Assembly (NCBI GenBank): GCA_042577865.1
Contig: JBHPDN010000004.1
Location: 1-52,922 of the forward strand
Origin: Nanobdellota archaeon
GTDB lineage: Archaea > Nanobdellota > Nanobdellia > Woesearchaeales > JAGLXL01
Direction of reading: 5' to 3'
DNA: 52,922 nt
Positions 5,416 through 26,345 of this stretch are shown piece by piece (position 1 is the stretch's first letter; each line of letters opens with the position of its first letter). The notes beneath the pieces were generated by a model. That model saw nothing but the letters and a program-made list of their open reading frames with translations, was not told the origin of the DNA and did not search any database. The position numbers and the translations under genes were made by a program.

Positions 5416-5664
5416 ATGGTTAAAAACGAGGAATTGGTTTTATTTTGGTATGATTTAACTTCTCTGAAAGCTTCTCAAAAAGTAAGATTTGTTTATACAT
5501 TAAAAGGAAGAAAAGGAGAAATAGGTCTGATAGAAAGGTTTGGTGGAGAATTTTTGGTCAATGGTTGTTTTATGCTGCCAATGGAAAAAGAAAGGGAAAT
5601 GAAAGATGTGTTTAAGTTTTGGAAAGTCAAATTCAAAAGTAAAAAGATTGTAGTTGTAAAATGA
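5416..5664 (+). CDS. Small cytoplasmic protein (82 aa), unknown function; beta-alpha-beta-beta-alpha-beta-like pattern
   Basis: A TATA at 5382-5390 lies about 30 nt upstream of the ATG. The stop overlaps the next start (ATGA at 5661-5664). No signal peptide or TM. The LVLFWYDL...KVRFVYTLKG...GCFMLP pattern is only loosely Cas2/VapD-like. Confidence 0.55.
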   Translation: MVKNEELVLFWYDLTSLKASQKVRFVYTLKGRKGEIGLIERFGGEFLVNGCFMLPMEKEREMKDVFKFWKVKFKSKKIVVVK

Positions 5665-7886
5665 AAAAAAGACACCGATTAAACAAGTTTAATCTGGCCT
5701 TTTATAAAAATAAAGGGGGCCAAATAACAATGTTTATTTTATTAGGAATAGTTGTTTTGATAATCTTTGTTTTCTTATTTTACTTAATCAGTTCTGGAAT
5801 AAGCCAGCGATTGGAAACTCAGAGGCAGCAAACTATAATTACTGCATTGGAAGCCAGTTCGATAGATTATTTGACTGGGGAGTGCGCTGTTGATGCCTTG
5901 AAATCTGGTTTGATTTTGATTGGGCAACAAGGCGGCTGGATTTATGAAGAGCAAGGTGGTTTCGACACACCTTTCTTGACTAATTTTAACGGTTCCAATA
6001 TCAGTTATGATGTGAGCTATAACGAGCAAGATCCTAAGGGAGTTAATTTGGCACCGGTTTATCCTTGTCCGCTGCTTTTTTTAACTGATGAACCACGTTT
6101 TTGTGAGTTCCCTTATTACAGCGGTCGGGTTAATTTTGGAAATAGATGGCTGCCTGATTTAGAAGGGGGAGGGGTTTTGACAATCAAAAGACAGCTTGAA
6201 AATTACATCCAAGATTATGTTCAAGACTGCACTGATTTTGAATCGTTAGTCCAGGAAGAAGGGTTAGCTGGTTATGACATTACTTGGGATGAGCCCCAGG
6301 TTCAGGTAATCTTTGGGTTAGATAATATTAGAGTAATTCTTGATTATCCTATCAATGTTATGATCGGAGATGAAGAACCAATTCACCATTTACTTGGTTT
6401 TAAAGCCAAAGAAGAAATAAATTTCCGAGGCATTTACAATTTAGTAAGAGAAGTTTTGGACAAAGATAATAATCTGGCTGATTTTGATATAAGTCAAAAC
6501 ATTTCCCAAGAAAATCTTTGGCGGGCTGGAGAAATGATTTTTGAAGAACACCGATTTGATAACGGAGATGTTTTTATTTTGGAAGACTCCACCACCCAAA
6601 TTTATGGAAATGATTATATCTTTCAATGGGCCAGACAAAACAGGCCGCCGGTTTTGTATTACATAGCCAATAATGCTTCTGAATTAGATCCTTATGATTT
6701 TTTAGTAATTGAAGGTGAAAAGATTGAGATGATTGCCGAGGGAGCAGACCCTGATGAAGATTTGATTAATTTTAGTTTTGACGGCGGTTCCTTGGGAAGT
6801 TTTGATGGCAATATTTTTGAAAAAAATTCAACCAATCTATCTCAGTGGCCAGCTTATAATGTAACAGTTGAAGTACATGATTGGGTTTGGACTGATGAGC
6901 AAAGAGTAAGACTGTTTGTAGATAGAGTTTTAGAACCAGCCTTTACAATTTACAGTTATCCTGAAATTGGAGATGGTTTTATTTCAGTTGAAGATCCTGT
7001 TTATTTGAATGCCAGTCCAACACTTAAATCCCTAGCGCCAAATACACCACACAGTTATTACTGGGAATATTGGGGGCCAGAGGTTGGAACTGGTTTGTTA
7101 GAATATTTTGAAATCGGGGCTGATTCAGAATGTATGGTGGTGCCTGGATTTGAAAATTGTTCTGTTGGAGATTTTGATATATTGAATATAAGGGGCCAGC
7201 ATTTTAATGAGTCTGGTGACACAACCATGTTTTTGACAGTAACTGCTCATTACAGTGACAGGGTTCAAGAGGTAAAAATCCAGAGAGATGTAACTGTCAA
7301 GGAATGTCTGCCTTTAAGAAGTTCCAGTCCTCCTTATCCATATAATATCACAGATCCGTTTTTGTCAGACCACAGTTGTTGCTTGGGAAATGTGGATCAA
7401 CCTCATACCTGGCAACTGGCCAATTCAAGCACAGTTTGTTACAGCCAGAGTGAAAACTGTACAGCGAATCATCCTAAAACAACCAAAGCCACCAATCGTC
7501 ATTGTGATGGTTTGAGAGGAAATACATGTACTGGTGATTTGGATGTAGTGAGCACTTGTGGTTATAATGATTGGACTAATTGTTTTAACATTAATGATAA
7601 TTGTGAAGGTCTTGGTGCTTACCAATATTCTGATGAAGATGAAGGTTGGTGTTATGGAGCAGAAGGCTGCGGCAGTTTCTGCACTCAAGAAGTTGTAGCT
7701 CCTGTGGGTATGAATGGAACTATTGCTTTGAGCCAATTAAACAGTAGTTTTGAATGTGGTTGTGATGTGGGTAATATGGACCAATATTGTGATGATGATT
7801 ATGATGGTGATTTTGAGAAACAATGTCAAAGGCATGGCGGACCTTTTACTTACTATTATAGTTGTGATGAGGTGAGCCAGAGTTAA
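5661..7886 (+). CDS. Prepilin-like N-terminus fused to a roughly 700-aa sequon-rich ectodomain with a Cys-rich C-terminal module (candidate large pilin-anchored adhesin)
   Basis: N-terminus ...FYKNKGG|QITMFILLGIVVLIIFVFLFYLI (charged, G|Q, hydrophobic helix). The C-terminal roughly 190 aa is packed with Cys (SCCLGN, CTGDLDVVSTCGYNDWTNC, CGCDVGNMDQYCDDDYDGD). There are many N-x-S/T sequons. Confidence 0.8.
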   Translation: MKKRHRLNKFNLAFYKNKGGQITMFILLGIVVLIIFVFLFYLISSGISQRLETQRQQTIITALEASSIDYLTGECAVDALKSGLILIGQQGGWIYEEQGGFDTPFLTNFNGSNISYDVSYNEQDPKGVNLAPVYPCPLLFLTDEPRFCEFPYYSGRVNFGNRWLPDLEGGGVLTIKRQLENYIQDYVQDCTDFESLVQEEGLAGYDITWDEPQVQVIFGLDNIRVILDYPINVMIGDEEPIHHLLGFKAKEEINFRGIYNLVREVLDKDNNLADFDISQNISQENLWRAGEMIFEEHRFDNGDVFILEDSTTQIYGNDYIFQWARQNRPPVLYYIANNASELDPYDFLVIEGEKIEMIAEGADPDEDLINFSFDGGSLGSFDGNIFEKNSTNLSQWPAYNVTVEVHDWVWTDEQRVRLFVDRVLEPAFTIYSYPEIGDGFISVEDPVYLNASPTLKSLAPNTPHSYYWEYWGPEVGTGLLEYFEIGADSECMVVPGFENCSVGDFDILNIRGQHFNESGDTTMFLTVTAHYSDRVQEVKIQRDVTVKECLPLRSSSPPYPYNITDPFLSDHSCCLGNVDQPHTWQLANSSTVCYSQSENCTANHPKTTKATNRHCDGLRGNTCTGDLDVVSTCGYNDWTNCFNINDNCEGLGAYQYSDEDEGWCYGAEGCGSFCTQEVVAPVGMNGTIALSQLNSSFECGCDVGNMDQYCDDDYDGDFEKQCQRHGGPFTYYYSCDEVSQS

Positions 7887-7891: not shown

Positions 7892-7900
7892 TTTATAAAT
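7892..7900 (+). promoter_or_regulatory. TATA box TTTATAAAT upstream of the giant surface-protein operon
   Basis: Exact 9-mer. It is too close to ATG 7906 (6 nt) and lies 37 nt from ATG 7933. Confidence 0.45.
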
Positions 7901-7932
7901 CAAAAATGGTTTTAAAAGGGAAGTACAAAAAA

Positions 7933-10900
7933 ATGGGAAAAAGAGAGGTGATTTGGTTATTAGTAGGAATATTTTTCTTAGTTTTAGCTAGTTCTGTTTT
8001 GGCCCAACAAGGTTGTTTTACAGAACCAACTTATACTTCTATTTGCACTCAAGTTACTAGAACCAACGCAACAAGCTGGTGCTCTAATTTATGTACAAAT
8101 AACCAAACTTGTTTGAACGATTGTTTAACCAAGTATTTCTTTGAAAATCATGACTGTAGTATCGGCGTCTGTTCAGCTAATGCTGGTTGGTGTACTGATG
8201 TGCCAGCGTGTGCTCAGGTTAATCGTCCAGCTGAATGTGTCGACCGAACCAGTTTTACTAATTCAAGTGTGCCATGTCAGACTGGTTGTTGTATTTTAAC
8301 TTCAGGAACAACTAACCAGTGTGGTTCTCCGGCCTGGCCATTAATGACTTATCAAGAATGTGTCAATAAACAAAACCTTTATTCTGGTTATAGGATTAGT
8401 GTCTTTGATACTTCAGTCACAAGTTCTGCTGCTTGCGCCCAAGTTTGCGGCCAAACAATCGGAGCTCCAGGCAGAATCTCTGGTTATGTGGTCAATTCTT
8501 CTGGAAATGGAATTGGTGGAGCATCTATTGAAGCCTTTTCCATTAAGACGACTTCTTTAGCCAATGGAAGTTATACTTTGACAGCTTTGCCGATTGGTAC
8601 AGCAATTGTCACAGGAACAGCCAATGGATATGGCCAAAGTGTTTCAAGTGTGACAGTTTCTACAGGAGCAACAACTAATCATAATATTACTTTGCCAGCA
8701 GCGAGTTCAGGAAGAATTCATGGTTTTGTAACTTCAGGAGGAAGTCCTCTTGGCGGGGCTTTGGTTTCAGTAAGTGGCGCTGATTATTCTCAAATTTCAA
8801 CTCAAGGTGATGGAAGTTATTCCTTAGATGCTTTGAATTTAGGAAGCTATACGGCCACAGCTTCAGCCAGTGGTTATGGGAGCAGTTCTCAGCAAGTAAG
8901 TTTGACAGATGATGCTATTGAGATTAATTTTAGTTTAAGTTTAAGCCAGCAAGCAACAATCACTGGTTTAATTTTGGATCAGTACAATAGAGCGGTGCCT
9001 TTGGCGACAGTTCGAATTACCGGACCATCGAATTATACTGCTTATACAAATCAAAATGGAGTTTATACCAAAATAGTTTTTGCTAATGATACTTCAACAT
9101 CATATTCTGTTTCTGCCACAAAGGGTGGTTATAACCAAAGTTCAATCCAGACAGTTTCTTTAATTAAAAATGATGTGAAAACGGTCAATCTTAACATGAC
9201 TAAACTGGCATTGGGAGCTTGTGCTGATCCCAATACTTTGCCAGTATCAAATTTCAATGTTAATCATTTACCTGGAGAAAAAGCCCTACAATTGACTTGG
9301 GCAAGCCCATGTCCTGAAGTGACTGGGTATTATATTAACAGAACCAGCGGTGGACAAGAAGTGGCTTTGGCTTATATTCCAGCGACTCAAGCTTTACAAT
9401 TCAAAGATACTGGTGTCAGCTGGAACACCACTTATACATACAAAATCCGGGCTTTTTTTGATGCAGCACCAAGATTCTCTAATACAACTAATACTAATTC
9501 AATCACAACCGGCGATGCTGCCTGTGAAGGTCCATTGAGATATAACAACGGCCAGTATCTTCAGTTTTGCCAAGGGCCATTTAACAGAAGAATTTGTAAT
9601 GCTAATAACAAAGTTGTTGAACCAACAGATGGGACAATAACCAATCCTGTCAACTGTACAGCTTTAGGTAATTTCCGTTTCTGTAGAGGTCCTGATAGTT
9701 TAGGCAAGACTTCCTGCAGTGATGCAACTCATTGTTTAACTAGTCCTGGTCCAGGAGGAGTTTGGGTAACCAGGAACAGTTGTTATGGAAGTAGTAGTGT
9801 GCCTTATCCAAATTACTGTTATTTTGAACCAAGTACGCCTTTTAACTTTTGTTATTCCTGCTCTGCTTTGCCAACTAAGTCTTGTTATGATTATGCTTCC
9901 AGCGATGCCTGCGGAACTAATAACTGTCTACCAGGCAAGAGCTGTACTTGGTGGGTCTCTCCATCAAATGTGGGTTATTGTTATGAGCCTGGTTATGCTG
10001 GAACTGATCAGTGCAGCAGGTGTCAAGTTGGTTGTACGCAAGATGTTTGTGATAAGTTAGGAGACTGTTATGCTAACAGTGCCAATACAGCCTGTTTACG
10101 GTGCAGTCTACCACCTCAGCCATGTGGTTCTTATACCACACCTCAAGAATGTGATGGCGGGCAAGCACCTACTTTTGTCAATGATGTTTTAGTTGCTTCC
10201 CAAGATAGGTGTGGTTATGAAAGGTGTCTTTATCAAAGTGGTTCCTGCGGCAAAGATGGAGATGGAGATGGCAACTTTGAATGCTTAGATCCAAATAAAG
10301 TTTCACCAGCAGAACAAAGTACATGTCAAAGAGACCGGACTCCACCTGTAACTAAGATTCTGCCTTTTGGTTTTATTTCTGTTAATAATGCGACAGGCAA
10401 TATTACTTTCCAAGGAAATGATTCATTTGGTATGCAGAAAGTTGTTTATTGTATTGATAAAACCAACACTTGTTCACCAAGTGCTTCTTTAAATTATCCT
10501 TCTGGTACTGGGGTGAAAACAGTTCAACTTAATTTGGCGACTGATAATCAATTAAGACAAGCACACAGTCAGCACGGTCCAGGAACTTATTATTTGAGAT
10601 TTTATTCCCTTGATAAATATTACAACAGAGAAAATGTTCAAAGCAGAACTCTTAATGTTGATTTGGATGCACCAGTCTTTACTTTGAAAAGCTGTAATGT
10701 TTTAACTAATGCAACTTCTGGTTCAACGATACGCTGCCAGATAGCCACTTCTGAAATGGTGACTTGCAGTGACAGATTAGATACTTATAATGTGGTTTCT
10801 GGATTTACTCCATATGGAGCTTTCCCAAACCAGAGAACTAATTCAGAAATTATTGATTATACTGGCCTGCCAGACGCTCTTTACAAATATGAAATCAATT

Positions 10901-13900
10901 GTACTGATGATTATGGCAATTTAGTAACTTGGGGGCCGCCAGGTATTACAGTCCAAGCTCAAGCAGGAGTCAATAGAGTTTTCCCTCCTAGAGCTTTGAA
11001 TGCCAGCTCATTTAGATTCCAAGTTTATACTCCTCAGATAGCCAGCTGTAGATTAATGAATGGAACAACAGTGATTGAAAGTTTCAGCCCGTCTGCTGGA
11101 AACAATCATACTTCCTCGCAACATACCTTCACTCCTAACTTTTATTATCCAAATTATTGGGCTGATTGCGGCAGTGTGGGGTCTGTTTCATTAGACTTTT
11201 CTGTTGACAGACTTGGTCCGGTGACCAGAGCAAGATTAGTTTCCGGTGGAACACAAGCAATTAAATCAGGAAGCGGTTGGGTGGCAACCTTAACTAATAC
11301 CACTGCTGTAGATTTTGTCTGTACTGACCAACCAACCACTATTTCTGGAGGGTCAGCTGGTTTTGGATGCAATACAACAAAATGGTGTTTAACTAATGGT
11401 AGCAGTTGTACACCTAACAGAATTGATGCAGTGCCATCTGTAACAGCTGATGTAACTCTCTGTTATTACTCTAATGACTCAGGTGGTTATCAGGAAACAT
11501 CAACTAACTGCGGCCAGATACAAATCAGACCAAGTTTTGGCATCAATATAGTCAGTCCAAGTCATGGAGTGAGCAACCAACCAGAATTTGATTTAGAAAT
11601 TAATATTCCAACAGTGGCCACTGATACTTGTAAATGGCAGCCTAATGTCCAGAGTTGGATATTTAATCAGATTACAAATCCCAAATATATATTTACTCCG
11701 GTAACCGGTTCATCATCTAATTACAAGATTGTCAATTTTTCAAGCCAAGTAACTGGCTTCCCTAACAGTTTCAGCAGAGTTCCTGTTTATATTGCCTGTA
11801 ATTCAACAACAGGAATGGTTTCACCAATCGAAAGATTTGAAATTGTTTATGACCCAACCCCTCCAGTGATTACGAGTGCTAGTTTCAACCCAAATCCAAT
11901 TGTCCAAGGCTCTTCAACAACTTTATCTGTGGTGACTGATGATAATACTGTCTGTAAGATTGGCAAAGGAATACCAAGCATCCAGTTTGATGATTATGAC
12001 AGAAACGATTTCAAGACAACTCATACTCATACAATTTACATTTCAGCGCCAGGAGATGATAATAAGACTCATTATTGGAATGTCAGCTGTGAAAATGAAG
12101 CCGGCAACTTTTCATCAATTACCACAGCAGCTTTTGCAGTCGACTTAAGTGCTATGGGGGTGATTGTGTCAACTTCACCAAGCGGAGCTTCCAAAAATAC
12201 TAATATTAATTTGAATGTGATCACCAATAAAGCAGCCACTTGCAGTTACAAACCAAGCAACGCTTATATCCCAATGGCTAATGTAGGAGGGGTGAATCAT
12301 TCCAAGTCTCTGGCCTCTAATTTGAGCCAGGGTCGTTACAGTTATCCGGTTCGCTGTCAATTTGCCCAGCATTATGTTGACAGCTCCATCAACTTTGCTA
12401 TAGACTTAAGTGCACCAAAGATGATTGAAGTTGATGATGGAAATTATTCCTGCGGCTTGGACGAGATTAATCCTAATTTTGAAGCAGAAGATAATATTTC
12501 TTCTGTCGTTGGTTATAATTATCAAATCCTTGAATTAAGCGGCACGACTGTTCTTTACTCTGACAATGTTTCAAGGGCCAATCCAAGAATAGATGATTTG
12601 AATTTAACCCTAAATAAAAATTATTTCCTTAAAGTAAAAGCTAAAGATGAAGTGGGTAACTGGGGTACAGCCAAATCAAGCAATGGGTTCAAGGCTACAG
12701 CTGCCAATTACAGTGGCTGCCGGGAACAAAGAGCTCCAATCATTTCCCTGGTACAAAATGCAACAGCTACAGGTATTAAAGTAACAGTGAAGTGTAATGA
12801 TGATACTGGTTGTATTGGTTTAAGCTATGGTACTTCTGCCTCTTCAATCTGTAATGCTTCTACCAGTTATGTTGGTCCTGTGTTGGTAACGGAAACATCT
12901 TATTTCTGCGCAGAAGCCCGAGATGTTTCAAATAACAAAGGAACCAAACAAGTTCAGGTAATCATTAGTGATACTGATACTGATGGTATTTTAAATCAGT
13001 TTGATCAATGTCCGGGCACTTCTTTAGGTAAGGTGGTGGATGAAAACGGATGTTCAGCATCCCAATTAAATACTGACAGTGATGAAGACGGACTGCCTGA
13101 TGACTGGGAAATTCAATACTCTGCTGAAGATTGTTCTTTTGATCCTCAACAGAATGATACAGATGATGATGGTATCTTGGATGGAGACGAAGATTATGAT
13201 GGTGATGGTTTGTCTAACTATCGTGAGTACCAACAAAATGGAGACCCTTGTTTAGTTAAAGACAGAGATGGAATTCTTGACAGTTGGAGACTGCAGTACT
13301 TTGGCTGCATAGACTGCGCCAATGCAGAAGCAAGCGCTGATCCTGACAATGATGGATTGACTAATCTGCAAGAGTATAATTTAAAGGACACTTATGGATC
13401 AAGTACTCACCCTAATAATCCAGATACTGATGGTGATGGTTATCAAGATAAGGAAGAGGTAGATAATGATTGGGATCCAACTAAATTTAGTATTCCGGGA
13501 GAAGGCACTCCCATCCTGGCTTGGATCTTTTTGATTTTAGGAATATTGATGGTATTGGGTGGTGTGGGTTATGTTTTGATATTGAAAAAAGGAAAGACAC
13601 CTAAACCTCGACCAGTCTATCCAATCAGAGTGGCACCAAGACCAAGACCAGTACCAAGACCTAGGGTTGTGAGGCAGCCAGCGGTTCCTCCAGAAAGAGT
13701 TAAGATTCAAGAGTTGGTGGCCAAAAGAAAAGCAGAACGGGAAAAAGAAAAAAGAACTAAGAGAAGAGAGGCCTTTGAGCCGTTTGTTTCTGGCGACCGT
13801 AAATTGCCCAAAGTCAAAAAGATTATCCAACAAAAAGAAAAACCTGTTTTTGAAAAATTAACAGCAGTGGCCAAACATTATGACGACAAACGTAAGGAAG

Positions 13901-14100
13901 TTTCACCTAAGCTGGCAGCAGGCGAGAAGAAAGTATTTGAGGAATTAACTAAGTTGGTTGGGAATAAAAAGAAAGAAGATGTCAAAAAAGTTTTAGGCAA
14001 GAAAAAGGGAGAGGATATTTTCAATAGATTAGTCAATATTGTGGGCAAAAGAGAAGGAAAAGATGCCTTAAAAGAGTTGAAAAAATATGCTAAAAAATAA
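7933..14100 (+). CDS. Giant multidomain surface protein (about 2055 aa) with a C-terminal TM anchor and a repeat-bearing cytoplasmic tail
   Basis: The ORF is 7906..14100. ATG 7933 is preferred (MGKREVIWLLVGIFFLVLASSVLA|QQG) because the TATA at 7892-7900 ends 6 nt before ATG 7906. By eye it reads as a Cys-rich N-module, 3 carboxypeptidase-regulatory-like repeats and an FN3-like segment (LQLTWASP...YTYKIRA). These are followed by a second Cys-rich module, several Ig-like modules, TSP3-like Ca-binding repeats, a TM at 13513-13584 and a basic tail. I count roughly 40 N-x-S/T sequons by eye. Confidence 0.9.
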   Translation: MGKREVIWLLVGIFFLVLASSVLAQQGCFTEPTYTSICTQVTRTNATSWCSNLCTNNQTCLNDCLTKYFFENHDCSIGVCSANAGWCTDVPACAQVNRPAECVDRTSFTNSSVPCQTGCCILTSGTTNQCGSPAWPLMTYQECVNKQNLYSGYRISVFDTSVTSSAACAQVCGQTIGAPGRISGYVVNSSGNGIGGASIEAFSIKTTSLANGSYTLTALPIGTAIVTGTANGYGQSVSSVTVSTGATTNHNITLPAASSGRIHGFVTSGGSPLGGALVSVSGADYSQISTQGDGSYSLDALNLGSYTATASASGYGSSSQQVSLTDDAIEINFSLSLSQQATITGLILDQYNRAVPLATVRITGPSNYTAYTNQNGVYTKIVFANDTSTSYSVSATKGGYNQSSIQTVSLIKNDVKTVNLNMTKLALGACADPNTLPVSNFNVNHLPGEKALQLTWASPCPEVTGYYINRTSGGQEVALAYIPATQALQFKDTGVSWNTTYTYKIRAFFDAAPRFSNTTNTNSITTGDAACEGPLRYNNGQYLQFCQGPFNRRICNANNKVVEPTDGTITNPVNCTALGNFRFCRGPDSLGKTSCSDATHCLTSPGPGGVWVTRNSCYGSSSVPYPNYCYFEPSTPFNFCYSCSALPTKSCYDYASSDACGTNNCLPGKSCTWWVSPSNVGYCYEPGYAGTDQCSRCQVGCTQDVCDKLGDCYANSANTACLRCSLPPQPCGSYTTPQECDGGQAPTFVNDVLVASQDRCGYERCLYQSGSCGKDGDGDGNFECLDPNKVSPAEQSTCQRDRTPPVTKILPFGFISVNNATGNITFQGNDSFGMQKVVYCIDKTNTCSPSASLNYPSGTGVKTVQLNLATDNQLRQAHSQHGPGTYYLRFYSLDKYYNRENVQSRTLNVDLDAPVFTLKSCNVLTNATSGSTIRCQIATSEMVTCSDRLDTYNVVSGFTPYGAFPNQRTNSEIIDYTGLPDALYKYEINCTDDYGNLVTWGPPGITVQAQAGVNRVFPPRALNASSFRFQVYTPQIASCRLMNGTTVIESFSPSAGNNHTSSQHTFTPNFYYPNYWADCGSVGSVSLDFSVDRLGPVTRARLVSGGTQAIKSGSGWVATLTNTTAVDFVCTDQPTTISGGSAGFGCNTTKWCLTNGSSCTPNRIDAVPSVTADVTLCYYSNDSGGYQETSTNCGQIQIRPSFGINIVSPSHGVSNQPEFDLEINIPTVATDTCKWQPNVQSWIFNQITNPKYIFTPVTGSSSNYKIVNFSSQVTGFPNSFSRVPVYIACNSTTGMVSPIERFEIVYDPTPPVITSASFNPNPIVQGSSTTLSVVTDDNTVCKIGKGIPSIQFDDYDRNDFKTTHTHTIYISAPGDDNKTHYWNVSCENEAGNFSSITTAAFAVDLSAMGVIVSTSPSGASKNTNINLNVITNKAATCSYKPSNAYIPMANVGGVNHSKSLASNLSQGRYSYPVRCQFAQHYVDSSINFAIDLSAPKMIEVDDGNYSCGLDEINPNFEAEDNISSVVGYNYQILELSGTTVLYSDNVSRANPRIDDLNLTLNKNYFLKVKAKDEVGNWGTAKSSNGFKATAANYSGCREQRAPIISLVQNATATGIKVTVKCNDDTGCIGLSYGTSASSICNASTSYVGPVLVTETSYFCAEARDVSNNKGTKQVQVIISDTDTDGILNQFDQCPGTSLGKVVDENGCSASQLNTDSDEDGLPDDWEIQYSAEDCSFDPQQNDTDDDGILDGDEDYDGDGLSNYREYQQNGDPCLVKDRDGILDSWRLQYFGCIDCANAEASADPDNDGLTNLQEYNLKDTYGSSTHPNNPDTDGDGYQDKEEVDNDWDPTKFSIPGEGTPILAWIFLILGILMVLGGVGYVLILKKGKTPKPRPVYPIRVAPRPRPVPRPRVVRQPAVPPERVKIQELVAKRKAEREKEKRTKRREAFEPFVSGDRKLPKVKKIIQQKEKPVFEKLTAVAKHYDDKRKEVSPKLAAGEKKVFEELTKLVGNKKKEDVKKVLGKKKGEDIFNRLVNIVGKREGKDALKELKKYAKK
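8470..9201 (+). repeat. Three tandem carboxypeptidase-regulatory-like (CarboxypepD_reg-type) beta-sandwich domains at protein level
   Basis: GRISGYVVNSSGNGIGGASIEA...NGSYTL..LPIGT..V..TANGYG, then GRIHGFVTSGGSPLGGALVSV...DGSYSLDALNLGSYTATASASGYG, then ATITGLILDQYNRAVPLATVRI...NGVYT...YSVSATKGGYN. Confidence 0.65.
12970..13480 (+). repeat. Thrombospondin type-3-like acidic Ca-binding repeats (D-x-D-x-D-G-x-x-D) at protein level
   Basis: DTDTDGILNQFDQCPG, DSDEDGLPDDWE, DTDDDGILDGDEDYDGDGLSNYREY, DPDNDGLTNLQEY, DTDGDGYQDKEE. Confidence 0.65.
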
Positions 14101-14659
14101 AAAAGCACAAACCATTGGCCAAGTGTTTATTTACATCATGGCAATAATTATTTTTGCCGCTATTCTTATCTTTGGCTATAAAGCGATTAGTGAATTTATT
14201 GACCGGGGCGAAAGTGTTGGTTTCATCACCTTTAAAACTGATTTAGAAAAATCAGTCAAAACAATATATTCTGATTATGGTTCGGTCACTATTTATAATG
14301 TTGAAAATCCTCTTCGAGTACCGGGTAAGTATGAGGAAATCTGTTTTGTTGATTTAAGCAAACCATTGCCTTCTTCTGGCAGTTTTTGTGCCAACCATCC
14401 TATTGCTTGTGATGCCTGGGGGACCGCTTATCAAGCAGGTATCAGCAGTGGAACTGACGGCTGGCAGGAAGGAGAACAAAATGTTTTCTTAAGACCTTTG
14501 GGAGAAATTGCCATTAAAGTGTATAAAATAACAGTTGATAGCAACAGCAATAATGTTGATGATGACAGTGACGGATATCTATGCTTTAATTTGACACAAG
14601 GAAGATTAAACATGCGTATAGAGGGCAAAGGTGACCATGCTTTTATCAGCGCCATCTAA
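14087..14659 (+). CDS. Prepilin-like protein (class III signal peptide), 190 aa
   Basis: MLKNKKA|QTIGQVFIYIMAIIIFAAILIFG. The start overlaps the giant gene stop by 14 nt. Confidence 0.7.
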   Translation: MLKNKKAQTIGQVFIYIMAIIIFAAILIFGYKAISEFIDRGESVGFITFKTDLEKSVKTIYSDYGSVTIYNVENPLRVPGKYEEICFVDLSKPLPSSGSFCANHPIACDAWGTAYQAGISSGTDGWQEGEQNVFLRPLGEIAIKVYKITVDSNSNNVDDDSDGYLCFNLTQGRLNMRIEGKGDHAFISAI

Positions 14660-14660
14660 A

Positions 14661-15734
14661 ATGCGAAAAAAGAAAGGTCAGATTTCAATAGGGTTCCACT
14701 GGATTTATATCTTGATAGCTGGAGCTATTATTTTAATTTTTTTTGTGGGGATTGCATTAAAACAAAAAGATGTTTCTGAACAAAGCATTTCGGCAACAGT
14801 GATACAAAGTTTAGAAAGTATTTTTACCGGAGCTGGTTTGGCGGAGCAGACGATAAATTATATTGAAATCCCGGAACTGGAAATTGCCTTTACCTGTGAT
14901 TTAGAAGGTTATTCTGATTACTCGGTGGGGTCGGTGAAAACAGAAACGCCCTTCCAACCAATTTTTGCTTTGGAAAGGGTCAAGGATAATGTGTTGGTGA
15001 CCTGGACCTTGGAATGGATGATGCCGTTTAAAGTAGACAATTATATGTTTGTGATGACTCCTGACATTAGATATTATTTAATTTATGACACCAGCAGCCG
15101 CCCTTTAGCTTCTGAGATTGAGGCAGCCTTGCCAACTGAGATTTCAGAAAACATTAATTTTGAATCTTTAGATATAAGTGAATATTTTGGGATTATTGAC
15201 AAGAATGATTACAAAGTCAGATTTGTTTTTTTGAGTGATACTGCTTTTGTTTCCAGTATTCCTCTGGAATTGCAGGGAATGGCTGACAGGGATGTGACGG
15301 CGATGGTATTAAGCGGAACTTTAAACGGGGGCACAATCAGTTTTTACAGAAAAGATGGCAGTGGTTGGATGCTGACTGGCAGTTCTCCTTTGATTGGCAG
15401 TTTTACAGATGACAATCCTAATTTTTACGGGGCGGTTTTTTCTGAAGGTAAGGAACAGTATGACTGCAACTTACGCAAGGCATTCAAGCGGCTGAAAATC
15501 AGCAGTGAGATCTATTTAGAAAGAGCTCTGCAATTAGAACCTGCTTCTATACCTGACTGCCATGGCATCTTTTTCCCTGATTATTTTACAAATTCCCAGA
15601 CAGGTTTGATTGCTCGAGCGGAACAATGTTCTGAGAAGATTGAGGTGCAGTGTGATTTGAAACCAAATGTGGGCGATCAAATTTTTGAAAATAACCGGCT
15701 GTTGGGGACAGCAGGATGTTTTGATATTTATTGA
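14661..15734 (+). CDS. Prepilin-like protein, 357 aa
   Basis: The ORF is 14631..15734. ATG 14661 is preferred because it lies 2 nt after the upstream stop and gives MRKKKG|QISIGFHWIYILIAGAIILIFFVG. Confidence 0.7.
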   Translation: MRKKKGQISIGFHWIYILIAGAIILIFFVGIALKQKDVSEQSISATVIQSLESIFTGAGLAEQTINYIEIPELEIAFTCDLEGYSDYSVGSVKTETPFQPIFALERVKDNVLVTWTLEWMMPFKVDNYMFVMTPDIRYYLIYDTSSRPLASEIEAALPTEISENINFESLDISEYFGIIDKNDYKVRFVFLSDTAFVSSIPLELQGMADRDVTAMVLSGTLNGGTISFYRKDGSGWMLTGSSPLIGSFTDDNPNFYGAVFSEGKEQYDCNLRKAFKRLKISSEIYLERALQLEPASIPDCHGIFFPDYFTNSQTGLIARAEQCSEKIEVQCDLKPNVGDQIFENNRLLGTAGCFDIY

Positions 15735-15736
15735 AA

Positions 15737-16216
15737 ATGAAATCAAAAAAAGGACAAATGCGGATGATGGAAACAATGGCCATATTATTTGTTTTTTTTG
15801 TTTTATTACTTTTTGGCATTATCTTTTATTATCAATTCCAAAAAAGCAGCATTGAAGATCAAAGGGCCCAAATTTTATCTGAAAAATCAATTGATATCTC
15901 TCTGCGAGCTTCGTTTTTGCCTGAGTTAATCTGTCCAGGTGTGCCAACTAAGAAAGATTGTATTGACATCACGAAAATGGAAATATTTTCCGAGAAAGCT
16001 CAGGAAGAGTATTTGGACTATTATTATGATATTTTGCAGTCAGCAAGGATCACAGTTGAAGAACTGTATCCTCCATCATCAAGAAGCTGGGTTTTGTATG
16101 ACCAGCAGAAACCAAATGCCACTCGCAGCATTAATACGCCAGTGCCGGTGTCATTATTTGATCCAGAGACTGAAGAACATTCGTTCGGAGTTTTGAAAAT
16201 TGAAGTTTACTCGTAA
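15737..16216 (+). CDS. Prepilin-like protein, 159 aa
   Basis: ATG 15737 gives MKSKKG|QMRMMETMAILFVFFVLLLFGIIFY. The first 18 nt are identical to the starts of the genes at 26979 and 27584. Confidence 0.7.
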   Translation: MKSKKGQMRMMETMAILFVFFVLLLFGIIFYYQFQKSSIEDQRAQILSEKSIDISLRASFLPELICPGVPTKKDCIDITKMEIFSEKAQEEYLDYYYDILQSARITVEELYPPSSRSWVLYDQQKPNATRSINTPVPVSLFDPETEEHSFGVLKIEVYS

Positions 16217-16679
16217 AGGCCAGATGGAAATCATTGGACTAGTAATCATTGTTATTTTAATAGCAGTGGCCATGATCTTTTTTATTCAATTCAGTTTAAC
16301 TAAAGAACCTTCGCAATCAAGGGAGACATTTACACGGAAGTTAATGGCTCGGAGTACTAACAATGCTATTTTTGAATCCATGACGACTTGCGGGGTGGCT
16401 TTCAGTGAATTGTATAAGGATTGTGCATCTGGCGGTGGTTTAGGTTATAATTGCGGCATGGACAACACTTGTGTTTATGTTGAAAAAGAAGTTGCAAGTA
16501 TTTTGAATCAAACTTTGGCTCAATGGAATAACGACTATCAGTTTAAAATTTATGTTGGCGACCAGACAAAAGTTAATATAGTCCAAGGGGATTGTTTAAA
16601 TAGCAAGGATGAAGGGACAAATTATGTTCGTTCACAAGGAAGTTTAGTTTATATTAATTTGAAGGTATGCAAAAAATGA
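16200..16679 (+). CDS. Prepilin-like protein, 159 aa, probable TTG start
   Basis: The TTG at 16200 gives M-KFTRKG|QMEIIGLVIIVILIAVAMIFFIQF. The first ATG (16224) would delete the RKGQ junction. The gene overlaps the upstream gene by 17 nt. Confidence 0.6.
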   Translation: MKFTRKGQMEIIGLVIIVILIAVAMIFFIQFSLTKEPSQSRETFTRKLMARSTNNAIFESMTTCGVAFSELYKDCASGGGLGYNCGMDNTCVYVEKEVASILNQTLAQWNNDYQFKIYVGDQTKVNIVQGDCLNSKDEGTNYVRSQGSLVYINLKVCKK

Positions 16680-16801
16680 ATAAAAAAGGTGATGCTTGGA
16701 TCTTGAATATCGGTTGGTTAAAATTATTGATTTTTGCTATTTTTTTGGCCATCTTGATTTTTGTTGTTTTTTTTGTGGTGTTGCCTAAATTCACAGGTTA
16801 A
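16676..16801 (+). CDS. Mini prepilin-like ORF (41 aa), not in the ORF track
   Basis: Hand translation: MNKKG|DAWILNIGWLKLLIFAIFLAILIFVVFFVVLPKFTG*. ATGA overlap with the upstream stop (16676-16679). The next gene starts 5 nt after its stop. Confidence 0.5.
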   Translation: MNKKGDAWILNIGWLKLLIFAIFLAILIFVVFFVVLPKFTG

Positions 16802-16805: not shown

Positions 16806-17414
16806 ATGAAAAAAGGAGGGATAAGAACATTTTTGGTGGGAGTAATCATTGTTGCTATTGTGGGAGTGGTTTTAGCCATCTTTTTAGTAAATCTTAGATC
16901 TACCTTTGGAGAAAGCCAGTGGCTGGCCAGCTGTGAAGTGAGTGTCAGGGCTTACAGACAGGTTGGTCCGATGGCTAAAATTTATTGTCCAGTTTTGAGT
17001 TGGGAAGTTAAAGAAGATTTGAATTCTAATGAAGCTAAAGAAGAAGTACTGGAAAAAATGAAAACATGTTATGATTTGTATGTTGAAGAAGAAGCTCTTT
17101 TCGAAGAAGGTTTAAGCTGTGCTCCTTGTTACAATCTGACTTTTAGTGGAAAAGGTGAGATGAATAATCTAAAAGAATTTATCACAAATAGTACCGACAG
17201 TGAAATTTTGGGTTTGAAGCGTTCTGGATTTGGAGAAAATGTTGTTAAATTATCAAGTTTGGACCAGATAGAAAAAAATATTAAAACAGGTAAACAATAT
17301 TATGTAATATATGCCGAAGCTGATGATACTTTAGGAGCAGCTTGGGGGGTTTTTTTGATGGAAAAGGAGAAAGCTAGGAATCTATGCTTTTTTCCAGTGG
17401 AGGGTGCTCAATGA
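16806..17414 (+). CDS. Prepilin-like protein, 202 aa; paralogue of 17544..18398
   Basis: ATG 16806 gives MKKG|GIRTFLVGVIIVAIVGVVLAIFLV. It shares the Cys pattern SC...CP...C...C-x2-C-x3-TF with the 17544 product. Confidence 0.65.
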   Translation: MKKGGIRTFLVGVIIVAIVGVVLAIFLVNLRSTFGESQWLASCEVSVRAYRQVGPMAKIYCPVLSWEVKEDLNSNEAKEEVLEKMKTCYDLYVEEEALFEEGLSCAPCYNLTFSGKGEMNNLKEFITNSTDSEILGLKRSGFGENVVKLSSLDQIEKNIKTGKQYYVIYAEADDTLGAAWGVFLMEKEKARNLCFFPVEGAQ

Positions 17415-25496: not shown

Positions 25497-26345
25497 ATGG
25501 AAAAAAGAGGTCAATTAGCATTAGGATATTTGATAATTTCTGTTTTGTTAATTGGTGTGGCCTTGATTTTCTTTGTGACTTATGCCAAAAATATTAAAGA
25601 AGATACCTTGTTAGAAAAAACCTATTTTTCCCGAGATGTGGCTTTAGTTACTAATGCAGTTTATGCTTCTCCAGGCAATCTTTTTGTCAATTACAGTTCT
25701 TTAGCGATTTATGCTGATTTCTCTGTTCTACCAAATAAAGCATCAGCTGAACTTTTGAATTTTGAATTTGGGAATCAGAAAGTAATAGTTGTTGAAGATG
25801 ACGGAAAACAAAAAATAAGTTATCCCTATGCAGATGATTTTTTTTCTGGAAATTTATCGGGATATTTTGAAAAACCAAGTGATCTGTTTTTTGTCAGCGA
25901 TGGCCCAAACACCATGTTAGTTGAGAAAAAAACTGAGTTGGGAAAATGGAAATACCCTCAGATTGAAACCAAAGATGAAATCTGGCGGACCAGAAATTTT
26001 ATGATTGGACCAGAAGGAAACGACTTGGCTAATTATTTTTTGAATCAAGGGCTGCCATTCAAATCATATTATTCTGAACCAGACATTTATTTATGGATTG
26101 AAGAAGGAGAAAGCAATGAAGTAACGGCAACTATTTCCTATCAAACAGCAGCCAAAAGCAGAAAACTGGCTACTTTGATCATCAATAAAGTTTTAGAAAA
26201 TAAACCTAATGCTTACACTTGGATTAATGTAACTGATTCATCCCAATTAAAGGCTAAAGAAGCAGGAGTGGTTTTAAGAATTGGTTCAGGATTGATTAAA
26301 AAATTAGAATTGGAAGAAATTTTTGAGGAATACTATGAAGAATAA
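25497..26345 (+). CDS. Prepilin-like protein, 282 aa
   Basis: MEKRG|QLALGYLIISVLLIGVALIFFVTY. A TATA-like ATATTTAAATA at 25464-25474 lies about 28 nt upstream. Confidence 0.7.
   Translation: MEKRGQLALGYLIISVLLIGVALIFFVTYAKNIKEDTLLEKTYFSRDVALVTNAVYASPGNLFVNYSSLAIYADFSVLPNKASAELLNFEFGNQKVIVVEDDGKQKISYPYADDFFSGNLSGYFEKPSDLFFVSDGPNTMLVEKKTELGKWKYPQIETKDEIWRTRNFMIGPEGNDLANYFLNQGLPFKSYYSEPDIYLWIEEGESNEVTATISYQTAAKSRKLATLIINKVLENKPNAYTWINVTDSSQLKAKEAGVVLRIGSGLIKKLELEEIFEEYYEE

What the first reader, a model, noticed from the sequence alone, without database searches (positions are those of the whole stretch)
7933..14100. About 2055-aa mosaic surface protein heading a 12.4-kb operon with nine prepilin-like genes
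From outside to inside the protein reads as follows. Two Cys-rich modules, three CarboxypepD_reg-like repeats (8470-9201) and an FN3-like segment come first. A run of Ig-like modules follows, each opening with an L/D-x-x-P-V/P boundary (TPPVTKILPF, LDAPVFTLKS, DRLGPVTRARL, DPTPPVITSASF, VDLSAMGVIVSTS, IDLSAPKMIEV). Then come a TSP3-like Ca-binding array (12970-13480), one TM helix (13513-13584) and a roughly 170-aa cytoplasmic tail. I count roughly 40 N-x-S/T sequons by eye. The stop is overlapped by the first of nine tightly coupled prepilin-like genes, which suggests co-translation and stoichiometric assembly with them. A giant adhesin that is both membrane-anchored and genetically fused into a pilin operon is unusual.
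Basis: partly seen in the sequence, partly recalled or inferred. Interest (0 to 1): 0.75.

Follow-up and report, generated by a model that had tools for sequence, protein, structure and literature searches.

The report
Giant surface protein with pilin-like operon
A DPANN (Woesearchaeota-like) archaeon encodes a 2,055-residue membrane-anchored surface protein that, here and in dozens of relatives, always sits directly upstream of a fixed set of pilin-like genes, so it is probably part of a conserved but unstudied cell-surface or attachment apparatus rather than a one-off oddity.

Summary
ORF 7933-14100 (+) encodes a 2,055-aa type I membrane protein. Its parts, in order:
- signal peptide and a Cys-rich module
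- three CarboxypepD_reg repeats, which pass Pfam's threshold
- an FN3-like domain and a second Cys-rich module
- about nine Ig-like beta-sandwiches (AlphaFold pLDDT 85; Foldseek hits to tandem Ig/FN3 proteins)
- a TSP3 calcium-binding array that passes Pfam's threshold
- one TM helix and a 171-aa Lys-rich tail

It carries 42 sequons and 82 cysteines.

Nine genes follow with gaps of at most 4 nt. Two of them are mini-ORFs of 41 and 43 aa. The first gene overlaps the giant's stop by 14 nt, and eight of the nine have class III (prepilin-like) N-termini.

The protein is not an orphan. Exhaustive HMMER finds 449 clusters of collinear proteins, mostly about 2,000 aa. In 44 of 46 metagenomic loci seeded with downstream gene B, a giant-family ORF ends directly upstream. 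Gene C follows B in 63/63 loci and D in 50/52.

My reading is a conserved surface apparatus related to type IV filaments: a membrane-anchored "S-layer-like"/adhesin protein plus minor-pilin-like partners. Large C-terminally anchored, Cys-rich proteins in archaeal pilin loci were already described (Makarova 2016). So "unusual" is overstated, and this is a new, uncharacterised variant of a known theme. Function is inferred, not shown.

The parts
5661..7886 (+). Upstream 741-aa protein with a class III-like N-terminus (NKGGQ plus a hydrophobic helix) and a Cys-rich C-terminal part. It is a conserved upstream partner of the giant gene.
   Evidence: Translation. No Pfam or NCBIfam hit. A homologue lies upstream of the giant in 14/16 metagenomic loci with enough sequence, and also in L002 and L166.
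7892..7899 (+). Consensus archaeal TATA-like box TTTATAAA in the 19-nt spacer (measured to the alternative ATG at 7906) before the giant gene.
   Evidence: The same octamer precedes the 1450 and 5416 genes and the giant genes of L002/L003 and L004. There is no exact copy between 7900 and 23232. The promoter role is inferred.
7933..14100 (+). Giant type I membrane surface protein, 2,055 aa (alternative ATG at 7906 gives 2,064 aa).
   Evidence: Family of 449 clusters at E<=1e-3, collinear and mostly about 2,000-2,300 aa.
7933..8007 (+). Signal peptide (MGKREVIWLLVGIFFLVLASSVLA|QQGC; Sec-type cleavage site inferred).
   Evidence: Hydropathy peak; N-terminal helix in the model. 62/85 family members have [KR][KR]G before the hydrophobic region.
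8008..8466 (+). Distal Cys-rich alpha/beta module 1 (aa 35-187, 18 Cys).
   Evidence: Cys counts. No Pfam hit. Conserved Cys columns. Modelled at pLDDT about 70-95.
8467..9210 (+). Three CarboxypepD_reg (transthyretin-like beta-sandwich) repeats.
   Evidence: Pfam PF13620 at 108.6 bits against 32.3, 3 stretches. Foldseek hits to TIE and SlaB-type sandwiches.
9211..9522 (+). FN3-like beta-sandwich.
   Evidence: fn3 at 17.9 bits, below the cut-off of 25. All-beta in the model; FN3 tandems among the Foldseek hits.
9523..10338 (+). Cys-rich module 2 (aa 540-811, about 38 Cys). It is the most conserved ectodomain segment apart from TSP3.
   Evidence: no Pfam hit; many invariant Cys; 39% mean pairwise identity.
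10339..12966 (+). Array of about nine Ig-like beta-sandwich modules with family-invariant D-x-x-x-P boundaries.
   Evidence: AlphaFold2 pLDDT 85. Foldseek hits to GhpA, titin-like thick-filament proteins, contactin, leptin receptor and alpha-2-macroglobulin. Invariant D/P pairs. No Pfam hit.
12967..13509 (+). Membrane-proximal TSP3-type calcium-binding repeat array.
   Evidence: Pfam TSP3_bac at 36 bits against 25, 3 stretches. Invariant D-x-D-x-D columns. Highest conservation, 43%.
13510..13587 (+). Single transmembrane helix.
   Evidence: Hydropathy. Helix 1059-1085 of the model. Present in nearly all full-length relatives.
13588..14097 (+). 171-aa cytoplasmic tail: a Pro/Arg-rich stretch followed by a Lys/Glu-rich stretch with repeated F-x-x-[LF] motifs.
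   Evidence: Family consensus FxxF ... FxKL ... FEKL ... DIFxxL. Tail of about 85-320 aa in relatives. No Pfam hit.
14087..14659 (+). Gene A, 190 aa, pilin-like (MLKNKKAQ plus a hydrophobic helix). It overlaps the giant's stop by 14 nt.
   Evidence: Present between giant and B in 33/44 loci.
14661..15734 (+). Gene B, 357 aa, pilin-like (MRKKKGQ plus a helix). It is the largest member of the conserved set.
   Evidence: 369 relatives in metagenomes.
15737..16216 (+). Gene C, 159 aa, pilin-like (KKGQ....ET plus a helix; Q and E invariant).
   Evidence: Follows B in 63/63 loci.
16200..16679 (+). Gene D, 159 aa, pilin-like (RKGQxE plus a helix; Q and E invariant; C-terminal Cys pair). TTG start overlaps C by 17 nt.
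   Evidence: Follows C in 50/52 loci.
16676..16801 (+). Mini-ORF of 41 aa (MNKKG plus one TM helix). Its ATG overlaps D's stop as ATGA.
   Evidence: Similar 42-53-aa ORFs occur in relatives.
16806..17414 (+). Gene E, 202 aa (MKKGG plus a helix); lineage-specific.
   Evidence: No homologue in the 80 loci.
17411..17542 (+). Mini-ORF of 43 aa (MKKYGQ plus a TM helix). Its ATG overlaps E's stop as ATGA.
   Evidence: L001 9535-9681 shares the motif AWYSGLGEQ / AYYLGLGEK.
17544..18398 (+). Gene F, 284 aa, with an N-terminal TM helix. The class III motif is degenerate here, but relatives have MNKKAQ or KKGQ.
18401..20302 (+). Gene G, 633 aa (MINKKG plus a helix), with one TPR and a Cys-rich C-terminus. 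It is the last gene of the run, and its stop abuts a convergent gene.
24288..25016 (+). Two small pilins, 133 and 84 aa (KRGQG plus a helix). They are major-pilin candidates and sit directly after gene D in relatives.
   Evidence: Homologues follow D in 26-28 loci. A TATA box TTTATATA lies at 24240.
24998..27979 (+). Five further genes with pilin-like N-termini (the rest of the second cluster).
   Evidence: p4 and p5 have sparse homologues.

Best explanation
Statement. The locus encodes a conserved cell-surface apparatus of a Woesearchaeota-like DPANN archaeon, related to type IV filaments.

Shown:
- The giant is a Sec-exported, Cys-rich type I membrane protein with 42 N-x-S/T sequons; glycosylation itself is inferred from these and the AglB gene in the window.
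- Its N-terminal Cys-rich and CarboxypepD_reg modules lie farthest from the membrane.
- A stalk of Ig-like domains and a TSP3 calcium-binding array lead down to one TM helix and a conserved basic cytoplasmic tail.
- It is followed by genes whose products carry class III (prepilin-type) N-termini.
- Genes B, C and D (plus A in most lineages) are an invariant set. Small major-pilin candidates follow them in relatives.

Inferred:
- A prepilin peptidase and a type IV pilus ATPase/platform encoded elsewhere process and assemble A-D into a short pilus base, tip or pseudopilus.
- This structure works together with, and probably contacts, the membrane-proximal Ig/TSP3/TM part of the giant. That part is the only portion retained in all variants.
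- The giant is the anchored 'S-layer-like'/adhesin component, extending on the order of 50 nm from the cell.
- The ensemble serves attachment to a surface or host cell.
- Overlapping stop/start codons give translational coupling.
For: Architecture and topology.

Archaeal, DPANN-type context: (RadA, RPA, RNase P p30). Relatives named Woesearchaeota.

Family size and collinearity.

Class III-like N-termini with an invariant Q after K/R-G/A, an invariant E and about 20 hydrophobic residues. The four families share only this N-terminal segment, as pilins do.

Linkage:
- Giant-A-B-C-D in L001-L006, L051 and L166.
- In 44/46 metagenomic loci; C follows B in 63/63 and D in 50/52.
- Short giants of 967-1,488 aa keep only the part equivalent to window aa ~1160-2009 yet keep the partners.
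- Small pilins follow D in relatives.

Coupling: junctions of at most 4 nt, or overlaps.

Glycosylation capacity: an AglB/STT3 gene and glycosyltransferases lie in the same window.

Precedent: C-terminally anchored Cys-rich large proteins plus minor pilins in archaeal T4P loci, and Ig-rich adhesin-like proteins in TFF loci.
Against: - No pilus ATPase, platform protein or prepilin peptidase is present in the window or within +/-10 kb in four relatives.
- None of the pilin-like proteins hits a curated pilin or class III model in Pfam or NCBIfam, or any PDB sequence. The pilin call rests on N-terminal features only.
- A C-terminal TM anchor plus cytoplasmic tail is incompatible with the giant riding on a pilus tip.
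- Physical contact between the giant and A-D is not tested.
- Gene A is absent in 11 of the 44 linked loci, and stop/start overlap is seen in only about half.
- There is no expression, processing or imaging data.
Confidence: 0.55

Rival explanations
1. The giant is the main envelope (S-layer or surface-coat) glycoprotein of this lineage. The neighbouring pilin-like genes are a co-located but functionally separate pilus gene set, or envelope accessory proteins.
For: - It has type I anchoring, a signal peptide, many sequons, an AglB gene nearby, Ig-like domain composition and calcium sites, as in archaeal S-layer glycoproteins.
- Conservation is uniform along the whole length, without a variable tip.
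- The family is widespread, in a conserved genomic position near RPA.
- SlaB is among the Foldseek hits for the N-terminal part.
- Makarova 2016 calls such proteins 'S-layer-like'.
Against: - The near-invariant adjacency and frequent stop/start overlap with genes A-D over 27-40% sequence divergence argue for functional coupling rather than mere co-location.
- Short and very long (5,376 aa) variants exist with the same partners. That is odd for a lattice-forming protein.
- A conserved cytoplasmic tail of about 85-320 aa (171 aa here) is not a usual S-layer feature (my own knowledge).
Confidence: 0.22
2. The downstream proteins are not pilins. They are ordinary N-terminally signal-anchored membrane proteins that form a membrane complex (chaperone, maturation or anchoring) with the giant, independent of any type IV filament machinery.
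For: - No curated pilin model or solved pilin matches them.
- No assembly machinery lies nearby.
- Mini-ORFs of 41-43 aa are little more than a TM helix.
- A basic residue followed by G and then a hydrophobic segment also fits a plain signal anchor. The giant family itself often has KKRG before what looks like a Sec signal.
Against: - There are family-invariant Q and E residues at fixed positions right after the K/R-G/A site, as expected for prepilin peptidase substrates and pilin helices.
- About 18 such N-termini occur in 28 kb, including small pilin-sized proteins of 84-133 aa with strongly conserved N-termini.
- Stand-alone pilin loci away from the ATPase are common in archaea.
Confidence: 0.15
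3. The locus is a variable self/non-self recognition or polymorphic-toxin-like module built around a large Ig protein, analogous to VARTIG of Thermococcales.
For: A large Ig-domain protein is followed by several small genes, five of which are lineage-specific.
Against: - There is no hypervariable Ig region. All segments show 22-43% identity.
- The immediately downstream genes are the conserved ones, in fixed order.
- No toxin or immunity domains were found.
Confidence: 0.03

Closest known systems
'S-layer-like' large proteins and adhesins predicted in archaeal type IV pilus loci (Makarova, Koonin & Albers 2016, PMC4858521; e.g. arCOG05471 and the large C-terminally anchored proteins of Pyrobaculum/Thermoproteus clade 4 loci)
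   Same: Both are large secreted proteins with a single C-terminal TM helix and many conserved cysteines. Both are encoded beside several small class III signal-peptide proteins read as minor pilins.
   Different: - This one is in a different lineage (DPANN/Woesearchaeota-like).
- It has no detectable sequence-family annotation for about 75% of its length.
- It has a fixed domain order with CarboxypepD_reg, FN3, two Cys-rich modules, an Ig stalk and TSP3.
- It has a conserved Lys-rich cytoplasmic tail.
- No ATPase or platform gene lies in the locus.
- Homology to those arCOGs was not tested (no arCOG library was available).
Bacterial type IVa pilus minor pilins FimU-PilVWX with the PilY1 adhesin, and the T2SS GspH-I-J-K pseudopilin tip (my own knowledge; Nguyen et al. 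2015 as cited in PMC4858521)
   Same: A set of about four non-homologous pilin-like proteins share only the N-terminal helix, are encoded together with a large surface protein, and are translationally coupled. One member is much larger than the rest (B, 357 aa).
   Different: - PilY1 is not membrane-anchored and has a beta-propeller. No DUF2341 or PilY1 domain is found here.
- The giant has a TM anchor and a cytoplasmic tail, so it cannot sit on a pilus tip.
- The organism is an archaeon, the resemblance is an analogy only, and no structure for A-D is available.
Methanococcus maripaludis Epd pilus locus / archaeal TFF 'system 1' (bioRxiv 10.64898/2026.04.22.720090)
   Same: - It is a multi-gene operon of diverse pilins plus adhesin-like accessory proteins.
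- System 1 is reported in methanogens and some DPANN.
- K/R-G-Q cleavage-type N-termini resemble EppA substrates (my own knowledge of Szabo et al. 2007; not verified here).
   Different: The Epd locus carries its own ATPase, two platform genes and the EppA peptidase. None is present here. No sequence similarity was established.
Aureispira grappling-hook protein GhpA (PDB 9fly)
   Same: It is the best Foldseek match for aa 812-1900 (E 3.6e-23). Both are giant surface proteins built from tandem Ig-like sandwiches. The 2026 preprint makes the same comparison for archaeal TFF-associated proteins.
   Different: TM-scores are about 0.1 and identity is 11%, so the likeness is generic tandem-Ig. GhpA is a bacterial protein with no TM anchor or pilin partners (my own knowledge).
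Archaeal S-layer glycoproteins with a C-terminal anchor (e.g. Haloferax volcanii SLG; Sulfolobus SlaB, PDB 8qox_B)
   Same: These have a signal peptide, N-glycosylation sequons, Ig-like or beta-sandwich domains and a C-terminal membrane anchor. SlaB is among the Foldseek hits for the N-terminal part.
   Different: There is no sequence relationship. The long conserved cytoplasmic tail, the two Cys-rich modules and the obligate linkage to pilin-like genes are not S-layer hallmarks.

Membership tests
Archaeal type IV pilin-like proteins (class III signal peptide) - the nine downstream genes | Short basic leader ending in K/R-G/A(S) within about the first 15 residues, followed directly by about 20 hydrophobic residues | tested here: met
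   Met for 8 of 9: A KKAQ, B KKGQ, C KKGQ, D RKGQ, mini-ORF NKKG, E KKGG, mini-ORF KYGQ, G NKKG. F is degenerate here, but its relatives have KKAQ or KKGQ.
Archaeal type IV pilin-like proteins (class III signal peptide) - the nine downstream genes | Conservation of the processing-site region across homologues | tested here: met
   Q after G/A is invariant in C and D. E is invariant at +3 (D) and +6 (C). An invariant Q occurs in the helix of A. K/R-G/A/S is near-universal in B.
Archaeal type IV pilin-like proteins (class III signal peptide) - the nine downstream genes | Match to a curated pilin, archaellin or class III signal model, or to a solved pilin | tested here: not met
   No such hit in Pfam or NCBIfam at E<=1. 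No PDB sequence relatives.
Archaeal type IV pilin-like proteins (class III signal peptide) - the nine downstream genes | Cleavage by a prepilin peptidase (PibD/FlaK/EppA) and incorporation into a filament | not testable with these tools
   Needs proteomics, a heterologous cleavage assay or cryo-EM.
Archaeal type IV pilin-like proteins (class III signal peptide) - the nine downstream genes | Assembly ATPase, TadC/FlaJ-type platform and peptidase encoded in the same locus | tested here: not met
   None is present in the 52.9-kb window or within +/-10 kb in relatives. This is not disqualifying, because stand-alone pilin loci are common.
CarboxypepD_reg (PF13620) repeats | Score above Pfam's gathering threshold | tested here: met
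   108.6 bits against 32.3, three stretches, aa 191-430.
Bacterial TSP3 repeat (PF18884) calcium-binding array | Score above Pfam's gathering threshold; D-x-D-x-D-G motifs | tested here: met
   36 bits against 25, 3 stretches, when aa 1666-1868 is scanned alone. Not listed in the whole-protein scan. Seven D.D.DG motifs; invariant Asp columns.
Fibronectin type III (PF00041) | Score above Pfam's gathering threshold | tested here: inconclusive
   17.9 bits against 25, E 0.0036. The fold-level model is a beta-sandwich, and FN3 tandems are among the Foldseek hits.
Tandem Ig-like beta-sandwich stalk | Beta-sandwich fold in successive modules of about 80-110 aa | tested here: met
   AlphaFold2 pLDDT 85, all-beta. 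420 PDB matches at E<=1e-3, led by tandem Ig/FN3 proteins. No Pfam Ig family is matched, so membership of any named Ig family is not claimed.
'S-layer-like' proteins of archaeal T4P loci (Makarova 2016) | Large, signal peptide, single C-terminal TM helix, multiple conserved Cys, encoded beside minor pilins | tested here: met
   This is a descriptive class, not a homology family.
'S-layer-like' proteins of archaeal T4P loci (Makarova 2016) | Sequence homology to arCOG05471 or the related arCOGs | not tested
PilY1-like pilus tip adhesins | DUF2341 or PilY1 C-terminal beta-propeller domain; no membrane anchor | tested here: not met
   No such Pfam hit. The protein has a C-terminal TM helix and a cytoplasmic tail.
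VARTIG-type hypervariable Ig modules (PMC8416519) | Hypervariable C-terminal Ig region and variable downstream genes | tested here: not met
   Uniform 22-43% identity per segment. The immediately downstream genes are conserved and in fixed order.

The most novel reading that the evidence does not exclude
The giant, the 741-aa pilin-like protein upstream, the A-D set and the small pilins together form a dedicated host-attachment organelle of Woesearchaeota-like DPANN archaea. In this reading a type IV-like filament or pseudopilus is mechanically and perhaps signal-coupled, through the giant's TM helix and its conserved F-x-x-F / F-E-K-L tail, to the cytoplasm. That would be a kind of anchored pilus-stalk complex with no characterised counterpart. 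A more radical form notes that the K-K-R-G motif precedes the hydrophobic N-terminus in 62/85 family members. If that is a real class III site, the giant itself would be a pilin-like subunit tethered at both ends.
Probability: 0.12. Interest if true: 0.8.

Novelty: new variant of a known kind. Interest (0 to 1): 0.45.

Why it matters
No Woesearchaeota-type archaeon has been characterised at the cell-surface level in any paper I found. How DPANN cells attach to partners is an open question.

This locus is one of the largest and most conserved surface-protein gene sets in these small genomes:
- 449 protein clusters for the giant
- 369 metagenomic relatives of gene B
- fixed gene order over 27-40% sequence divergence

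Most of it has no annotation in Pfam or NCBIfam.

It offers concrete, testable targets for metaproteomics, cryo-ET labelling and heterologous processing assays: the giant, a three- to four-member minor-pilin-like set, candidate major pilins, and a co-located AglB glycosylation cluster. If the coupling between a membrane-anchored stalk protein and a pilin set is physical, it would extend the known repertoire of type IV filament accessories in archaea.

Tried and rejected
- Word-indexed homology searches. The full-length giant and aa 540-1700 returned only CarboxypepD_reg repeat proteins or one partial relative. This wrongly suggested an orphan, and the exhaustive HMMER search corrected it.
- Exact look-up of the window's own protein found no contig on record.
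It was then dominated by TSP3 repeats of Verrucomicrobiota and others. Only L006, L007 and L051 were informative.
- Pfam scans of each Ig-like and Cys-rich segment, the tail and the mini-ORFs gave nothing significant.
- NCBIfam scans of the pilin-like proteins gave nothing.
- PDB sequence and profile searches with A, C, D and small pilin p1 gave nothing.
- hhalign among A-D found only the N-terminal helix in common, so the four are not recent paralogues.
- I considered that the 126- and 129-nt 'gaps' break the operon. I rejected this after finding the two ATGA-coupled mini-ORFs.
- I considered horizontal acquisition, because GC is 0.40 and GC skew about 0 in 8-12 kb against 0.36 and 0.2-0.3 in the flanks. 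I did not pursue it. I attribute the shift to the unusual amino-acid composition, and the synteny with housekeeping genes in relatives also argues against it.
- The sigma-70 promoter scanner was not used, because it does not apply to archaea.
- Szabo et al. 2007 could not be read. The EppA/+1 Gln parallel is therefore from memory only.
- Literature searches found no paper describing this family.

Full report
**1. What is in the sequence**

The window is an archaeal contig with 30-40% GC. It carries RadA (29932-30969), an RPA-type ssDNA-binding protein (28033-29019), RNase P p30 and ribosomal protein S2. ORF 7906..14100 on the + strand is open for 2,064 codons.
- It is the public gene call (P0001, 2,055 aa).
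- Its Met and Lys-3 align with invariant or near-invariant columns of the family.
- A consensus archaeal TATA-like octamer TTTATAAA at 7892-7899 is only 6 nt from 7906 but about 33 nt from 7933.

**2. Domain architecture of the giant**

- Signal peptide and TM helix. Hydropathy gives exactly two hydrophobic segments, one N-terminal and one at aa ~1869-1893. A 171-aa tail with 23% Lys follows.
- CarboxypepD_reg. Pfam finds three repeats at aa 191-430 (108.6 bits against a cut-off of 32.3).
- TSP3. Scanned alone, aa 1666-1868 passes the TSP3_bac threshold (36 against 25 bits, three stretches).
- FN3. The FN3-like segment is sub-threshold (17.9 against 25 bits).
- Other segments. The two Cys-rich modules and all proposed Ig-like modules have no Pfam match.
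- Structure models. AlphaFold2 with a 30-sequence family alignment gave confident models: aa 812-1900 at pLDDT 85.0, and aa 10-811 at pLDDT 85.7.
  - The C-terminal part is a string of all-beta domains, then a loop-rich Asp-rich region, then one long helix.
  - Foldseek against the PDB returns tandem Ig/FN3 proteins. Top hits are the base of the Aureispira grappling-hook protein GhpA (E 3.6e-23), thick-filament proteins, contactin, leptin receptor and alpha-2-macroglobulins.
  - The N-terminal part matches transthyretin-like and FN3 tandems, including the B. anthracis TIE protein and Sulfolobus SlaB.
  - TM-scores are low (about 0.1-0.2), as expected for flexible multi-domain chains, so only the fold class is established.
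- Module boundaries.
- Sequons and cysteines. The protein has 42 N-x-S/T sequons, all extracellular, against 28.5 +/- 4.6 in shuffles. It has 82 Cys, none in the tail.

**3. The nine downstream genes**

At a 60-aa cut-off only seven ORFs follow, with two apparent gaps of 126 and 129 nt. Both gaps hold a mini-ORF whose ATG overlaps the preceding stop as ATGA:
- 16676-16801, 41 aa, MNKKGDAW... plus one TM helix
- 17411-17542, 43 aa, MKKYGQVRPW... plus one TM helix

Counting these, there are nine genes from 14087 to 20302. Every junction is an overlap (14, 17, 4 and 4 nt) or a gap of 1-4 nt. The run ends where a convergent gene (20303-22435, -) abuts it. So 'nine tightly coupled genes' is right.

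Eight of the nine begin with a short basic leader ending in K/R-G/A, followed by about 20 hydrophobic residues. Gene F is degenerate here, but its relatives begin MNKKAQ or NKKGQ.

No curated pilin model and no solved structure matches any of them. The pilin assignment therefore rests on N-terminal features and their conservation:
- In alignments of seven orthologues each, the Gln after G/A is invariant in C and D.
- A Glu is invariant at +6 in C and at +3 in D.
- Cys pairs are conserved in the globular parts.
- B shows the same pattern in 15 sequences.
- Profile-profile comparison shows that the families share only this N-terminal segment. That is typical of pilins.

**4. The protein is not an orphan**

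Two word-indexed searches were swamped by CarboxypepD_reg proteins and suggested a singleton. The exhaustive HMMER search with aa 540-1700 found 449 clusters (50% identity) at E<=1e-3 and 164 at E<=1e-30. Most are 1,900-2,300 aa and collinear with the query.

About 90 full-length members share these features:
- an N-terminal signal
- a strikingly constant Cys count (mostly 72-90, with 78 the commonest value)
- one C-terminal TM helix
- a Lys-rich tail of about 85-320 aa

Sequon counts vary from 4 to 43, so the high count here is a lineage trait, not a family trait.

Per-segment conservation is uniform at 22-43% pairwise identity. Cys-rich module 2, TSP3 and the TM helix are the most conserved, and there is no hypervariable tip.

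**5. Linkage in relatives**

Gene B (357 aa) has relatives annotated as Candidatus Woesearchaeota.

In every longer contig carrying a B relative, a giant Ig-rich ORF lies directly upstream. It is followed by A-, B-, C- and D-like genes in the same order, at 27-42% identity. It is a CarboxypepD_reg giant of about 2,100-2,300 aa in the JGI 152-kb contig, L002/L003 and L004 (L001's is cut by the contig end). It is a shorter or split Big-domain form in L005, L006 and L051.

A metagenome scan seeded with the B alignment found 369 relatives. A BLASTP census of the 80 best loci gave:
- Of 46 loci with at least 1.4 kb upstream of B, 44 have a giant-family ORF ending directly upstream. A 45th, L101, also does by eye.
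- A lies between giant and B in 33 of these and is absent in 11. All 11 have short giants of about 1,370-1,490 aa.
- The giant's stop and A's start overlap in 17 of 33.
- C follows B in 63/63 loci and D follows in 50/52.
- A homologue of the upstream 741-aa pilin-like protein precedes the giant in 14/16.
- Homologues of the window's small pilins (24288, 24762) follow D directly in 26-28 loci.
- RPA lies about 8 kb downstream in 11 loci.

The reciprocal check from the giant side (P0040 contig; L006) agrees.

Complete upstream partners range from 967-991 aa through 1,368-1,488 aa to 1,885-2,141 aa. In one MAG a 5,376-aa protein is followed by a 967-aa protein. All retain the part equivalent to window aa ~1160-2009, meaning the last Ig modules, TSP3, the TM helix and the tail.

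Window genes E and G, the convergent PD40 gene, the 560-aa TPR protein and several of the second-cluster genes have no or rare homologues. In this genome they separate the conserved A-D set from the small pilins.

**6. Transcription**

I have no transcript data. The exact octamer TTTATAAA occurs in the spacers before the 1450, 5416 and giant genes, and before the giant genes of L002/L003 and L004. There is no exact copy between 7900 and 23232. This fits a unit starting at the giant. Weaker TATA-like strings inside the run (for example 16542-16655) mean internal promoters cannot be excluded.

**7. Interpretation**

Shown: a conserved, exported, Cys-rich, calcium-binding type I membrane protein with an Ig-like stalk, obligately linked to three or four proteins with conserved prepilin-type N-termini.

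Inferred: these proteins are processed and assembled by type IV filament machinery encoded elsewhere. None is in the window or within +/-10 kb in relatives. I also infer that they act with the membrane-proximal part of the giant, and that the ensemble serves surface or host attachment.

The C-terminal anchor excludes a PilY1-like tip position. The uniform conservation and the size variants do not fit either a pure diversifying adhesin or a classical S-layer lattice.

An AglB/STT3 gene (fused to a parvulin PPIase domain) and several glycosyltransferases lie in the same window. N-glycosylation of the sequons is therefore plausible but untested.

**8. Comparison with what is known**

Makarova et al. 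2016 already describe archaeal T4P loci that encode large proteins with a single C-terminal TM helix and conserved cysteines ('S-layer-like'). These loci also encode adhesins and sets of minor pilins. A 2026 preprint notes large Ig-rich adhesin-like proteins in several archaeal TFF subsystems, compares them to GhpA, and places 'system 1' in some DPANN.

I found no paper describing this particular family or its fixed partner set. This holds only for the library searched.

I therefore rate it a new variant of a known kind. The theme is known and predicted. This DPANN family is not: its domain plan, conserved cytoplasmic tail, invariant B-C-D(-A) partners and coupled mini-ORFs are undescribed.

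**9. Verdict**

Interest is moderate at 0.45. It is a well-defined, widespread, unannotated surface system in an uncultured lineage, but it conforms to an existing concept and its mechanism is inferred.

Noticed in passing
window 38504-41785 (+): A 1,093-aa AglB/STT3 oligosaccharyltransferase carries a C-terminal parvulin-type PPIase (Rotamase) domain. It is flanked by GT2 glycosyltransferases (35896, 41763, 45299, 46375), a PMT_2 protein (43558-45204, -), and DegT aminotransferase, hexapeptide transferase and GFO/IDH/MocA oxidoreductase genes. Together these form an N-glycosylation and sugar-modification island. The AglB-PPIase fusion looked unusual to me.
   Followed up: no
giant-family proteins P0037-P0185 (N-termini); window 7933-8007: 62 of 85 full-length family members have [KR][KR]G immediately before the hydrophobic N-terminal segment (typically M..KKRG-LFLVVL...). 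That also fits a class III (prepilin) site. The window's own protein has KRE instead. It is unclear whether this is a Sec n-region habit of the lineage or a real prepilin-type site.
   Followed up: partly
window 16676-16801 and 17411-17542 (+); L001 9377-9681; L002 13758-13913: Conserved mini-ORFs of 41-53 aa consist of a class III-like leader plus a single TM helix ('helix-only pilins'). They are ATGA-coupled to the preceding gene. Standard ORF cut-offs miss them.
   Followed up: partly
L004 1917-2429 (GCA_964460195.1): A free-standing 170-aa ORF just upstream of that genome's giant gene resembles the giant's Lys-rich cytoplasmic tail (26% identity over 159 aa, E 5e-4). This may be a soluble paralogue of the tail, or low-complexity similarity.
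   Followed up: no
L005 1-9510 (GCA_043823195.1): In this relative the partner of the A-D set is a 967-aa short giant, preceded with a 4-nt overlap by a Big-domain protein of more than 5,376 aa. The distal part of the system appears to be encoded as a separate, even larger protein.
   Followed up: partly
window 20302/20303: The last gene of the run (18401-20302, +) and a convergent 710-aa PD40 beta-propeller protein with an N-terminal TM helix (20303-22435, -) end back to back with no intergenic base.
   Followed up: no
window 5416-5664 (+): An 82-aa basic cytoplasmic-looking protein has no family hit. Its own TTTATAAA box lies at 5382, and it overlaps the start of the 741-aa pilin-like gene by 4 nt. 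A 66-aa ORF occupies a similar position in the JGI 152-kb relative. It may be a small regulator.
   Followed up: no
window 1450-5361 (+): A 1,303-aa secreted, Cys-rich protein has no Pfam hit and no C-terminal TM helix. Homologues were seen in only 3 of 80 related loci.
   Followed up: partly
L006 (CAYMBN010000004.1) and L007: Contigs carrying this Woesearchaeota-type locus are labelled 'uncultured Methanosarcinales archaeon' in their records. This may reflect mis-binning or automated mislabelling.
   Followed up: no
window 8001-12000: The giant gene has higher GC (0.40 against about 0.36) and near-zero GC skew (0.01-0.04 against 0.2-0.3) compared with its flanks. I attribute this to its Ser/Thr/Asn/Gly/Cys-rich, Lys/Glu-poor composition.
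   Followed up: no
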